Assembly (NCBI RefSeq): GCF_029227855.1
Contig: NZ_CP074356.1
Length of the DNA stretch: 64,000 bases
Direction: 5' to 3' (one strand)
From: Escherichia coli
GTDB taxonomy: Bacteria; Pseudomonadota; Gammaproteobacteria; Enterobacterales; Enterobacteriaceae
The first letter of the stretch is position 1. Each line of letters opens with the position of its first letter. Below are positions 44,001-45,770 of the stretch, piece after piece. Position numbers: made by a program.

Positions 44001-45770
44001 AGCCTGCCACTCCACGGTGTGCGTTTCGCCAGTGCGTGACGCGTCTGGCTGAGCCGCATCAAACGTGCCGCTGCTGATGGTCAGTACCGCATACGGCGTG
44101 GCAATGCGTTCTTCGCCAATCGCCAGACCGCCGTAAACCATGTGTTTCACTGTCGCTTTACCGTCCTGTACGCTGACGGTGCTGGCATCGTTAGACACCG
44201 CCGCTTTAAGGCGATAACCCAGTTTTGCCGCCAGTAATTTGCCGCGACGAGTATTCGGCAACAGCACCAGACCGTCTGCTCCGTGCTGGCGAATAGTGTC
44301 AGCCATGACACCGGCGTAATCTTCGATCATCCGATCGTCCGGTTTGCCGTTTAATTTCCAGACATGATTAGCGCCTAGCTGGATTGCCTGTGCGCCGTCG
44401 GCATCATTGAGGACAAAGGCATTGATTTGATTAGCTAAAGCCTGCGCACCGTTCATCAGTTCCGGCAGACGAGAAGGGGTATCGCTGAATACCCAGACTT
44501 GAGAAAACGTGTTCATAGCATCCCCTGTAATTAAATGACTTTGCGAAGATTTTCAGCAAATGCGGCGATCTGTTCTTCGCCGTCGCCTTCAATCACGATG
44601 CGCTGACGCTCGCGCTGTTTCGGCGCGGCAACCTGTTGTTCTGACCAGGCTGCCTCTGCGTTAAAACCGATATCCGCCGCCGACCATACCTGGACTGGCT
44701 TTTTCGCCGCGCCGAGAATGGCTTTCATCGAAGGAATTTGTGGGGAGTTGATATCAGTGGAAACAGCAACAACCGCAGGCAGCGGAATGCTTAAGGTTTC
44801 TGTTTCATCTTCCAGTTCGCGCTCAACGGTGAGGGTATCTGCCGTCAGGGAGATAATTTTGCTGACGCCGTTAACTGCCGGAATATTGAGGATTTCGCCT
44901 ACCAGCAAACCAACCTGCTGGGCATAAAGGTCGGAAGAACCATCGCCACAGAGGATCAAATCAAAGCCTGCTTTCTGGGCGGCTGCAGCCAGTGCGCTCG
45001 CCGTTTGTTGCGGCAGTGCCTGCTCGAACTGGTCATCAATCACCACAATCAGTTCATCCGGACCGCGCGATAGCACATCTTTACGCCCTTTGGCGTTGGT
45101 CAGGGCTTTACCGCCCACACTTAGGGCCGTCACCTGCGCCTCTGCTGCCTGTTGTTTTAGCTGGCAAGCCGCTTCAATAGCGTTGAGATCGTATTGGCTT
45201 ATTTTGGCATCGGCTTTACTGAAGTCTAACGAACCATCAGCATTATTGACCGCAATATCCTGTTCATCAGGCACGCACTTATAGCAAGTAATAATCTTCA
45301 TTGCATCTCCAGAAATCATGAAGGAAACGTCGTTCATATCGGTGGTGTTAATTACAGATATCACGCCCTTTAATTTGGAAATAAAACTTTAATCACCAAT
45401 ATTGAAAATGTCACACGCAGATAAATCCAACTTTCAATATTGTTAAGTCCCTCACCAATATTGAAAACATGGCGTAGCAAAAAGAAATTTTCAATATTGC
45501 TTTATGGATCACCAATATTGAAAGTCAGATGCTATTTTTTTACTCACAATCAAACTCATCACATTGATAAACAATGAATATTTACACAAAGACGCCCTGT
45601 TTTTACCCGATAAAAAACTGTGACTAACATCACAGAACGCAGCCAATTGAATACCCATTATGAGTTAGCCATTAACGCGTCCACGAGGTTAATAATAATT
45701 ATATTAAATGTTAACAAAAATAAAACAAACGGGAACGCAAAATAAATATTCGTTTTCACAGTGGAATTAA

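What the first reader, a model, noticed from the sequence alone, without database searches (positions are those of the whole stretch)
45393..45524. Periodic CAATATTG palindromic cores in the cai-fix divergent control region
The motif (tcac)CAATATTG(aaa) occurs five times (45393, 45433, 45452, 45489 and 45510) with alternating spacings of roughly 40 and 20 bp. These are probably the known CaiF/CRP-dependent regulatory architecture of the carnitine operons, but the strict periodicity is striking and would suit cooperative binding of a dimeric regulator on one DNA face.
Basis: partly seen in the sequence, partly recalled or inferred. Interest (0 to 1): 0.3.

Follow-up and report, generated by a model that had tools for sequence, protein, structure and literature searches.

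The report
Known CaiF operator of cai/fix
The repeated CAATATTG motifs are the already published binding sites of CaiF, the carnitine-pathway activator, between the E. coli fix and cai operons; the only detail that may be undescribed is a fifth, unpaired copy inside the fix promoter that is conserved in every CaiF-carrying species examined.

Summary
Five exact copies of the 11-mer TTTCAATATTG/CAATATTGAAA lie within 127 bp of the fixA-caiT intergenic region of an E. coli window; none occurs elsewhere in the 64 kb.

They are not five equal, equally oriented repeats. Four form two inverted repeats, TTTCAATATTG-N13-CAATATTGAAA (45432-45466 and 45489-45523). This is exactly the published CaiF operator (sites F1 and F2, Buchet 1999, as quoted in PMC12083890 and PMC3680233). 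The 'tcac' flank belongs to a weak CRP-like site, TGyyA-N6-TCACC, embedded in each 13-bp spacer. The fifth copy (45393-45407) is unpaired and fills the 17-bp spacer of the fix promoter-like site.

CaiT-anchored loci from 80 species show the motif only in Enterobacterales, most of which also show caiF in the fetched DNA. The layout is one unpaired site plus 0, 1, 2 or 3 dyads. The unpaired site is the most conserved element: TCACCAATATTGAA at two mismatches or fewer in 53 of 53 species, plus the window.

Verdict: already known and ordinary. The 'one DNA face' idea holds within a dyad (21 bp) but not between dyads (57 bp). The modest new lead is that the unpaired site may be the ancestral CaiF target, acting inside the core promoter as proposed for the paralogue GrlA.

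The parts
45393..45407 (-). c1: unpaired fifth CaiF-type site, TCAC-CAATATTGAAA (TTTCAATATTGGTGA on the fix strand). It lies inside the 17-bp spacer of the fix promoter-like site.
   Evidence: Exact 11-mer. There is no partner 13 bp away: the best 11-mer at that offset, TTTGGAAATAA, matches 6 of 11 (read). TCACCAATATTGAA is present at 2 mismatches or fewer in 53 of 53 Enterobacterales species plus the window. In 41 of the 53 it starts 93-99 bp from the fixA ATG. It is 99% conserved in a 25-species alignment.
45432..45466 (.). fix-proximal CaiF dyad TTTCAATATTG-N13-CAATATTGAAA (half-sites c2 45432-45442 and c3 45456-45466). It is one of the published sites F1/F2; which name applies could not be checked.
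   Evidence: repeat I3. Exact match to the published consensus. Identical half-sites in K-12. Half-sites 96-97% conserved against 54-79% for the spacers and linkers.
45489..45523 (.). fix-distal CaiF dyad TTTCAATATTG-N13-CAATATTGAAA (half-sites c4 45489-45499 and c5 45513-45523), the other of F1/F2.
   Evidence: repeat I6: 11-nt arms, 100% complementary, 13 nt between..
45441..45456 (.). CRP-like core TGTTAagtcccTCACC embedded in the first dyad, centre 45448.5. Probably the published CRP site 2, at -69.5 of fix.
   Evidence: 2 mismatches to TGTGA-N6-TCACA. RegulonDB v8.0 states that fixAp carries a CRP pair at positions similar to acsP2, in a passage that names a proximal -69.5 position. A centre of 45448.5 implies a TSS at 45379, which is 7 nt downstream of the -10-like hexamer found.
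45498..45513 (.). CRP-like core TGCTTtatggaTCACC embedded in the second dyad, centre 45505.5. Probably the published CRP site 3 (-126.5 of fix, a figure recalled from memory).
   Evidence: Read. Across 87 dyads the embedded 16-mer matches 6-8 of the 10 CRP core positions. The right half TCA is 100% invariant, and the left half never has the G of TGTGA at its fourth position.
45386..45414 (-). fix promoter-like site: -35 GTGACA (45414-45409), 17-bp spacer (45408-45392, which is c1), -10 TAAAGT (45391-45386).
   Evidence: The only promoter-like match on the minus strand of the intergenic region. GTCACA next to c1 is invariant in the Escherichia/Citrobacter/Salmonella group. It is a consensus match only, not a mapped start site.
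45619..45634 (.). Perfect CRP site TGTGA-N6-TCACA (CRP site 1) of the cai promoter. The conserved CATTAT at 45656-45661 is the likely -10.
   Evidence: 0 mismatches, the only such site in the window. Half-sites are kept in K-12 and other species while the 6-bp spacer varies.
45524..45618 (.). Linker between the CaiF array and CRP1: poorly conserved in sequence but fixed in length.
   Evidence: 52% mean conservation. The distance from the last core centre to the CRP1 centre is exactly 110.0 bp in 22 species. E. coli carries two discrete alleles about 33% apart.
44531..45301 (-). fixA (the annotated CDS starts at the ATG at 45301).
45774..47288 (+). caiT
53043..53438 (-). caiF, the regulator that binds the sites.
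   Evidence: RefSeq annotation of a 99.8%-identical genome. Pfam PF07180 CaiF_GrlA at 28.5 bits, cut-off 25. The predicted fold matches GrlA, 4kt5_C.

Best explanation
The five CAATATTG cores are the operator array of CaiF, the carnitine-pathway activator, in the shared control region of the divergent fixABCX and caiTABCDE operons.

Shown here or published:
- Four cores form the two published CaiF dyads, TTTCAATATTG-N13-CAATATTGAAA.
- The two halves of a dyad are 21 bp (two helical turns) apart.
- Each 13-bp spacer, together with the adjoining TG and C, forms a weak one-good-half CRP-like site (TGyyA-N6-TCACC).
- A perfect CRP site lies 110 bp beyond the array, next to the cai promoter.
- CaiF is a small, single winged-helix protein with the GrlA fold.

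Inferred:
- One CaiF subunit binds each half-site, on the same face of the DNA.
- CRP sits between the two subunits, so each dyad is a composite CaiF-CRP-CaiF module.
- These modules, centred at about -69.5 and -126.5 of the fix start, together with CRP at -41.5 of cai, co-activate both promoters when carnitine-derived signal, cAMP and anaerobiosis coincide.
- The fifth, unpaired site (c1, TCACCAATATTGAAA) is a genuine CaiF target inside the fix core promoter, in the -10/-35 spacer at about -14 to -28. It brings CaiF into direct contact with the promoter-RNA polymerase complex, as proposed for the paralogue GrlA at LEE1 P1. It is the ancestral core of the system, and the dyads are add-on modules that vary from 0 to 3 by duplication or deletion of a 57-59-bp unit.
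For: - Exact match to the published site sequence, and all five sites are identical in K-12.
- The array sits between annotated fixA and caiT, with caiF 7 kb away.
- Phylogenetic footprint: half-sites are 96-99% conserved and the linkers 52-54% across 25 species.
- Specificity: TCACCAATATTGAA at up to 1 mismatch gives 140 hits in 28.7 kb of fixA-caiT intergenic DNA from 53 species. It gives 0 hits in the other 872 kb of the same loci and 1 hit in 363 kb of CaiT loci that lack caiF, such as Shewanella, Campylobacter and Ferrimonas.
- CRP component: the embedded 16-mers and the RegulonDB v8.0 statement on the fixAp CRP pair.
- c1: present at 2 mismatches or fewer in 53 of 53 species plus the window. 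Its flank aAATaAaAC is conserved, its distance to the fixA ATG is 93-99 bp in 41 of the 53, and its distance to the first dyad centre is 48.5 bp in 37 of 44.
- c1 is the only CaiF-type site in ten species that have no dyad: Edwardsiella, Hafnia, Serratia, Leminorella, Limnobaculum and Budvicia (Budvicia carries a second copy).
- c1 fills the spacer of the only promoter-like site on the fix strand.
- Modularity: 0, 1, 2 or 3 dyads in 10, 11, 26 and 8 genomes. An E. coli O127:H6 derivative has a precise 59-bp deletion between c1 and c3.
- The CaiF model is a single winged helix and its best PDB match is GrlA. GrlA is reported to act through the LEE1 P1 spacer without dyad symmetry.
Against: - No binding was measured here.
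- The two primary papers (Buchet 1998, 1999) are not held. I therefore could not confirm which dyad is F1 or F2, the mapped start sites, or whether the footprints cover c1.
- The numbers -41.5, -126.5 and 289 bp come from my memory of the 1998 abstract. Only a -69.5 position is corroborated, and only loosely.
- Secondary sources speak of two CaiF sites only.
- The fix spacer is an optimal 17 bp, not the over-long 18-19 bp of GrlA and MerR targets, so a spacer-twisting mechanism is not obviously needed.
- Outside the Escherichia/Citrobacter/Salmonella group, TAAAGT and GTGACA are not conserved. A different, universally conserved -10-like hexamer (TWTWAT, 45385-45380 in the window) would place c1 at about -19 to -33 instead.
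- CaiF and CRP contacts overlap at the TG and TCAC bases, so simultaneous occupancy is assumed, not shown.
- caiF was not found in the fetched DNA of seven array-bearing loci: four are truncated, and the two Salmonella loci and the Budvicia locus are not.
Confidence: 0.9

Rival explanations
1. The fifth copy (c1) is only a relic of the tandem duplication that made the 57-59-bp units. It is not bound and has no function; only the two dyads matter.
For: The direct-repeat families D1 and D2 show that the units arose by duplication. Accessible literature names only two CaiF sites. A half-site without a partner would be expected to bind a dimeric regulator weakly.
Against: c1 is the best conserved element of the whole region, at 99% in 25 species. 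It is present in 53 of 53 species, including ten that have no dyad at all, and sits at a fixed distance from fixA in most. A neutral relic would have decayed like the neighbouring linkers, which are 52-54% conserved.
Confidence: 0.08
2. c1 is conserved as a core-promoter element for RNA polymerase (spacer or -35 region of the fix promoter) rather than as a CaiF site. The dyad half-sites resemble it only because they were copied from it.
For: c1 overlaps the fix promoter-like site, and its fixA-side flank holds a universally conserved -10-like hexamer.
Against: The conserved bases of c1 are exactly those conserved in the 87 dyad right halves, including TCA at 100% and CAATATTGAA. The dyad right halves lie far from any promoter, so the shared constraint is better explained by one DNA-binding protein. 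Promoter spacers are normally not sequence-conserved.
Confidence: 0.07
3. The motifs are bound by some other protein (H-NS, Fis, IHF or CRP alone), or they act as DNA or RNA hairpins, and CaiF acts elsewhere.
For: The region is AT-rich. [quoted passage not shown] The dyads could in principle extrude as cruciforms. A weak sub-threshold Rfam hit overlaps the array.
Against: The published CaiF consensus is this exact sequence. The motif is found only in the fixA-caiT intergenic DNA of Enterobacterales, 46 of 53 of which show caiF in the fetched stretch, and it is absent where caiF is absent. The region lies between the divergent start sites, so most of it is not transcribed. The Rfam hit (a plant microRNA family, 19.6 bits against a cut-off of 90) is noise.
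Confidence: 0.02

Closest known systems
CaiF sites F1 and F2 of the E. coli K-12 cai-fix intergenic region (Buchet et al. 1999, Mol Microbiol 34:562, as quoted in PMC12083890 and PMC3680233)
   Same: Same locus, and the same sequence TTTCAATATTG-N13-CAATATTGAAA twice. K-12 is identical at every half-site.
   Different: Nothing differs for the two dyads. The accessible sources do not mention the fifth, unpaired copy at 45393-45407. I could not check the primary paper.
CRP sites 1-3 of the cai-fix region (Buchet et al. 1998, J Bacteriol 180:2599) and the fixAp CRP pair listed in RegulonDB v8.0 as similar to acsP2
   Same: A perfect CRP site at 45619-45634. Two weaker CRP-like cores are centred at 45448.5 and 45505.5, 57 bp apart. 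This is consistent with -69.5 and -126.5 of a fix start at 45379.
   Different: Here the two upstream CRP cores are concentric with the CaiF dyads, offset by 0.5 bp. Their left halves always lack the second G of TGTGA, so they are one-good-half sites.
GrlA activation of the LEE1 P1 promoter in EHEC/EPEC (Islam et al. 2011, as cited in PMC4730234 and PMC3130263)
   Same: The regulator belongs to the same family (PF07180; best fold match 4kt5_C). The target lies in the -10/-35 spacer and has no dyad symmetry, like c1.
   Different: The LEE1 P1 spacer is 18 bp and the fix spacer is 17 bp. GrlA has no known upstream dyads or CRP partnership. CaiF binding to c1 is unproven.
Composite activator/CRP nucleoprotein complexes such as CytR-CRP and MelR-CRP
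   Same: A specific regulator and CRP occupy interdigitated sites and act together at a promoter (mentioned).
   Different: At CytR-regulated promoters CytR sits between two CRP dimers and represses. Here CRP would sit between two CaiF subunits, and the complex activates.

Membership tests
CaiF operator (F site) as published | Two 11-bp half-sites TTTCAATATTG in inverted orientation | tested here: met
   Exact 11-mers at 45432(+)/45456(-) and 45489(+)/45513(-).
CaiF operator (F site) as published | 13-bp separation of the half-sites | tested here: met
   Spacers 45443-45455 and 45500-45512 are 13 bp each (repeat I6). This is not met by c1, whose nearest partner (c2) is 24 bp away and faces outward, so c1 is not an F site in the published sense.
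CaiF operator (F site) as published | Location in the intergenic region between the divergent fix and cai operons of a genome that encodes CaiF | tested here: met
   fixA to 45301, caiT from 45774, caiF at 53043-53438.
CaiF operator (F site) as published | Protection or band-shift by purified CaiF | not testable with these tools
   Reported for K-12. K-12 is identical at these positions.
CRP binding site | Match to TGTGA-N6-TCACA | tested here: inconclusive
   45619-45634 has 0 mismatches. 45441-45456 has 2 mismatches. 45498-45513 has 3 mismatches (read). Sites with 2 or fewer mismatches are no commoner in the window than in shuffles (15 against 25 expected), so sequence alone does not prove the two weak sites.
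CRP binding site | Position compatible with CRP activation (-41.5 class II; about -70 and about -125 tandem class I/III as at acsP2) | tested here: inconclusive
   The positions fit if the starts are at 45668 (cai) and 45379 (fix). The fix start is inferred from a promoter-like match and the RegulonDB statement. No start site is mapped here.
Spacer-binding activation (MerR-like, as proposed for GrlA) | Regulator site lies between the -35 and -10 hexamers | tested here: met
   c1 (45393-45407) lies within the spacer 45392-45408 of the GTGACA/17/TAAAGT match. This is a consensus match only.
Spacer-binding activation (MerR-like, as proposed for GrlA) | Over-long spacer (18-19 bp) that the activator corrects | tested here: not met
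   The spacer is 17 bp. If c1 works in the core promoter, it need not work by untwisting.
CaiF/GrlA protein family (the binding protein) | Pfam PF07180 above the gathering score, and a GrlA-like winged-helix fold | tested here: met
   28.5 bits against a cut-off of 25. The model has mean pLDDT 76.6, with the blocks covering residues 11-60 averaging 92-93. The best PDB match is GrlA 4kt5_C, E 2.5e-4, TM 0.76 normalised to the target.

The most novel reading that the evidence does not exclude
The unpaired fifth site (TCACCAATATTGAAA, 45393-45407) is the ancestral and universal CaiF target. It is the only CaiF-type site in ten dyad-less species and is invariant in all 53 examined. It works from inside the fix core promoter, in the way proposed for the paralogue GrlA. 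The textbook F1/F2 dyads with their embedded CRP sites are lineage-specific booster modules that are gained and lost as 57-59-bp units (0 to 3 copies). A length-fixed but sequence-free 110-bp linker sets the geometry towards the cai promoter.
Probability: 0.4. Interest if true: 0.4.

Novelty: already known. Interest (0 to 1): 0.2.

Why it matters
Little changes for biology. The comparative picture does give three cheap experiments for anyone using CaiF/Pfix as a carnitine biosensor. The picture is one universal unpaired site in the fix core promoter, a variable number of CaiF-CRP-CaiF modules, and a linker of fixed length. The experiments are to mutate c1, to change the dyad number (a natural one-dyad E. 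coli allele exists), and to change the linker length. The work also links CaiF mechanistically to its virulence paralogue GrlA.

Tried and rejected
- **Primary papers.** I tried to read Buchet 1998, Buchet 1999, Eichler 1996 and the Meadows & Wargo review by DOI, PubMed id and PMC id. None is held. Footprint limits, start sites and the F1/F2 naming therefore rest on secondary quotations and, where marked, on my memory.
- **A cryptic partner for c1.** The 11-mer 13 bp on the fixA side is TTTGGAAATAA in the window (6 of 11), and the equivalents I read in other species were about as weak. Rejected.
- **A CRP site using the TCACC of c1.** The left half would be TAAAA (2 of 5) in the species I read, and the centre would fall at about -10 of fix. 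Rejected.
- **CaiF as a MarA-like two-HTH monomer.** This would explain a 14-15-bp asymmetric site, and PMC5806209 calls CaiF a degenerate AraC protein. Rejected: the model has one winged helix, and the best match is GrlA followed by MarR-like folds.
- **Tandem repeat and RNA readings.** Tandem Repeats Finder reports nothing and Rfam gives only sub-threshold noise.
- **Autoregulation of caiF.** There is no half-site upstream of caiF. The single 1-mismatch hit at 53330 lies inside the caiF coding region. The 14-mer never occurs outside the fixA-caiT spacer in 872 kb of the 53 loci.
- **Genome-wide motif census in E. coli.** Not possible with these tools, because the motif is too short for BLAST and no whole genome is held.
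- **Literature search for ChIP-exo, DAP-seq or SELEX data on CaiF.** Nothing found.

Full report
**Where we are.** The window is E. coli. The region 45302-45773 is the 472-bp spacer between fixA (minus strand, ATG at 45301) and caiT (plus strand, from 45774). caiF lies 7 kb further on, at 53043-53438. The same 481 bp are found in 5391 of 5426 complete E. coli genomes. The 146-bp array itself is at least 95% identical in all 5388 genomes that match it, and no feature is annotated there.

**Observation.** CAATATTG occurs at 45397, 45435, 45456, 45492 and 45513. There are only two other copies in 64 kb, and shuffles predict 1.3 in total.

The conserved unit is longer than the 8-bp core. The 11-mer TTTCAATATTG is exact at all five places: on the plus strand at 45432 and 45489, and on the minus strand at 45397, 45456 and 45513. 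Nothing else in the window matches even with one mismatch, apart from one hit inside the caiF coding region.

So the array alternates in orientation (<, >, <, >, <), and core-to-core spacings are 38, 21, 36 and 21 bp. 'tcac…gaaa' flanks only the three '<' copies. The two '>' copies are their reverse complement at the 11-mer level and have a different inner flank.

**What it is.** Two open papers quote the CaiF binding site defined by Buchet et al. (1999). [quoted passage not shown] This matches 45432-45466 and 45489-45523 exactly (repeat I6; spacers 45443-45455 and 45500-45512). K-12, the strain used for that work, is identical to the window at all five half-sites. Four of the five cores are therefore the known CaiF operator.

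**The 'tcac'.** Each 13-bp spacer, together with the last TG of the left half and the first C of the right half, forms a 16-mer: TGTTAagtcccTCACC (45441-45456, 2 mismatches to TGTGA-N6-TCACA) and TGCTTtatggaTCACC (45498-45513).

Across 87 dyads from 44 genomes (the window plus 43 species) the right half TCA is 100% invariant. The left half is TG(T/C)(T/C)A and never carries the second G of TGTGA. This gives 6-8 of 10 core matches.

A perfect CRP site lies at 45619-45634. From my memory of the Buchet 1998 abstract (paper not held), three CRP sites were footprinted: at -41.5 of cai, and at -69.5 and -126.5 of fix, with the two start sites 289 bp apart.

Taking the perfect site as -41.5 gives a cai start near 45668 and a fix start near 45379. 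The -69.5 and -126.5 positions then fall at 45448.5 and 45505.5, which are exactly the centres of the two embedded 16-mers. Two independent supports follow:
- The only promoter-like match on the fix strand is GTGACA(45414-45409)/17 bp/TAAAGT(45391-45386), whose expected start is about 45379.

Each dyad is therefore a composite CaiF-CRP-CaiF module.

**The fifth copy.** c1 (45393-45407) has no partner. The 11-mer 13 bp away on its fixA side matches 6 of 11. The nearest half-site, c2, is 24 bp away in the everted orientation. c1 exactly fills the 17-bp spacer of the fix promoter-like site, that is, about -14 to -28.

**Comparative evidence.** CaiT-anchored loci were fetched from 80 species. A CaiF homologue was detected (tblastn, E at most 1e-5) only in Enterobacterales loci. 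It was missing from the fetched stretch in seven array-bearing loci. Four of these are truncated; in Salmonella arizonae, S. diarizonae and Budvicia it is not within 8 kb.

The motif follows the same distribution. TCACCAATATTGAA at up to 1 mismatch occurs 140 times in 28.7 kb of fixA-caiT spacers of 53 species and 0 times in the remaining 872 kb of those loci. It occurs once in 363 kb of the 24 loci without caiF, which include Shewanella, Campylobacter, Ferrimonas, Desulfovibrio and Malaciobacter.

In a 25-species alignment (Escherichia, Salmonella, Citrobacter, Pseudocitrobacter, Phytobacter, Intestinirhabdus) conservation is as follows:
- Five half-sites: 96-99%.
- Dyad spacers: 75-79%.
- The c3-c4 linker and the stretch towards CRP1: 52-54%.

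**Architecture.** The layout is one unpaired '<' site followed by n dyads:

| Dyads | Genomes | Examples |
|---|---|---|
| 2 | 26 | the Escherichia/Citrobacter/Salmonella group, one Providencia |
| 3 | 8 | Proteus (period 59 bp: 38+21 in most) |
| 1 | 11 | Yokenella, Pluralibacter, Trabulsiella, Atlantibacter, Entomohabitans, three Providencia with a decayed first dyad |
| 0 | 10 | Edwardsiella, Hafnia, Serratia, Leminorella, Limnobaculum, Budvicia |

The unpaired site is the constant. TCACCAATATTGAA is found at two mismatches or fewer in all 53 species. In Entomohabitans, however, the first such match is the right half of its only dyad, and the c1 position itself has decayed.

The site is preceded by a conserved aAATaAaAC and starts 93-99 bp from the fixA ATG in 41 of the 53 species. 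In the dyad-less group, where it is the only CaiF-type site, it starts 254-339 bp away; Budvicia has two direct copies 27 bp apart. Its core centre lies 48.5 bp from the first dyad centre in 37 of 44 species.

Unit number can change within E. coli. A derivative of EPEC O127:H6 E2348/69 has a precise 59-bp deletion between the direct repeats c1 and c3, which leaves the unpaired site plus one dyad.

**Geometry.** Within a dyad the cores are 21 bp (2.0 turns) apart and so share a face. Dyad centres are 55-59 bp apart (57 bp = 5.4 turns, roughly 150 degrees out of phase), so the array is not on one face.

The distance from the last core centre to the CRP1 centre is exactly 110.0 bp in 22 species, although this linker is the least conserved sequence. 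It is 124-125 bp in Proteus, most Providencia (123 in one), Pluralibacter, Trabulsiella and Entomohabitans, and 137-152 bp in most of the dyad-less group. This points to a fixed three-dimensional arrangement between the array and the cai promoter.

**The protein.** CaiF (131 aa) passes Pfam CaiF_GrlA. An AlphaFold2 model built on 31 orthologues has mean pLDDT 76.6, with the blocks covering residues 11-60 averaging 92-93.

The model shows one winged helix: helices at 10-21, 27-34 and 38-51, and a long hairpin at 55-82. These are followed by a helix at 85-99, a low-confidence linker and a conserved basic C-terminal helix. The best solved match is GrlA in the GrlR-GrlA complex (4kt5_C, E 2.5e-4), followed by generic MarR-like winged helices. 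It is therefore not an AraC/MarA-type two-HTH protein, contrary to a remark in PMC5806209.

The residues whose alanine substitution damaged the biosensor response (N43, T46, Y47, R75) fall in the third helix and the wing.

**Mechanism.**

Published or shown:
- CaiF binds the two dyads.
- CRP, FNR and CaiF control the shared cai-fix promoter-operator region.
- caiF itself needs FNR and CRP.

Inferred:
- One winged helix binds per half-site, two turns apart.
- CRP binds in between.
- c1 brings a CaiF subunit into the fix core promoter.

The last step has a family precedent. GrlA is reported to activate LEE1 P1 through its -10/-35 spacer, which has no dyad symmetry (PMC4730234 and PMC3130263 citing Islam 2011).

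From memory, the 1998 abstract also reported that a 50-bp segment overlapping the fix start is required for cai transcription. That would fit c1, but I could not verify it.

Three caveats apply:
- The fix spacer is 17 bp, not over-long.
- Outside the Escherichia group the conserved -10-like hexamer is the adjacent TWTWAT (45385-45380), which would place c1 at -19 to -33.
- No binding data were produced here.

**Verdict.** The finding is real and correctly guessed, and it is already known. It is the CaiF operator with its CRP partners. The 'strict periodicity on one face' reading is replaced by 'two (elsewhere 0-3) CaiF-CRP-CaiF modules plus one unpaired core-promoter site'. The unpaired site's universality, the modular copy number and the length-fixed linker are modest details that may be unpublished.

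Noticed in passing
window 45545-45650 (between the CaiF array and CRP site 1): A patch that is dimorphic within E. coli. The window and strain EC488 carry one allele; K-12 and four other sampled strains carry another. The alleles are about 33% different over roughly 75-100 bp, while the flanks are about 99% identical and the length is fixed at 152-153 bp. All Escherichia species pairs are 58-74% identical here regardless of relatedness. CRP1 keeps its half-sites but not its 6-bp spacer. In 5391 genomes the 481-bp query is at least 99% identical in 470 and 90-95% identical in 4718.
   Followed up: partly
window 45516-45627; loci L003-L066: The distance from the last CaiF core centre to the CRP1 centre is exactly 110.0 bp in 22 species, although the intervening sequence is only about 52% conserved. 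Other clades have their own values: 98, 108, 115-116, 123-125, and 137-152 in most of the dyad-less group.
   Followed up: partly
L089 1405-1660 (E. coli O127:H6 EPEC1, derived from E2348/69): A precise 59-bp deletion between the 16-bp direct repeats at c1 and c3 leaves the unpaired site plus a single dyad. It is an E. coli example of unit loss. In all, 28 of 5388 genomes cover less than 80% of the array query.
   Followed up: partly
L088 (E. coli SFE8) 330-660: An IS26 copy replaces fixA, the fix promoter and the whole CaiF array. The junction lies just before the linker, and caiT with CRP1 remains.
   Followed up: no
L016 13750-16580 and L046 (Salmonella enterica subsp. arizonae and diarizonae): The five-site array is intact (0-1 mismatch per site), but no caiE or caiF follows caiD. 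A 654-aa ORF (14616-16580, minus strand) whose sequence looks sulfatase-like (not tested against any family library) sits there instead. No CaiF-like sequence is detectable in the 17.5-kb locus, even at E = 10.
   Followed up: partly
window 45355-45367 (tacagatatcacg), on the fixA side of c1: A block with consensus tA.A..tA.ca. is conserved in all 53 species: tagaaataccatg in Hafnia and Edwardsiella, agaattaacac in Proteus. It lies downstream of the inferred fix start. Its function is unknown.
   Followed up: no
L049 (Budvicia) 7307+302..+340; L023 and L044 (Leminorella, Limnobaculum) 25 bp from the fixA ATG: Budvicia has two direct copies of ATCACCAATATTGAAA 27 bp apart instead of inverted dyads. 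Leminorella and Limnobaculum carry an extra exact TTTCAATATTG only 25-26 bp upstream of the fixA start codon, 235 bp from the conserved site.
   Followed up: no
window 53043-53438 (caiF): The CaiF model is a single GrlA-like winged helix with a conserved basic C-terminal helix (ELNREQKWQWMLSKSQRR). A published description of CaiF as a degenerate AraC-family protein (PMC5806209) is not supported by the fold.
   Followed up: yes
window 45618-45635: The terminator-like hairpin reported by the scan on the minus strand is simply the perfect CRP palindrome followed by a T run. It is not a terminator.
   Followed up: yes
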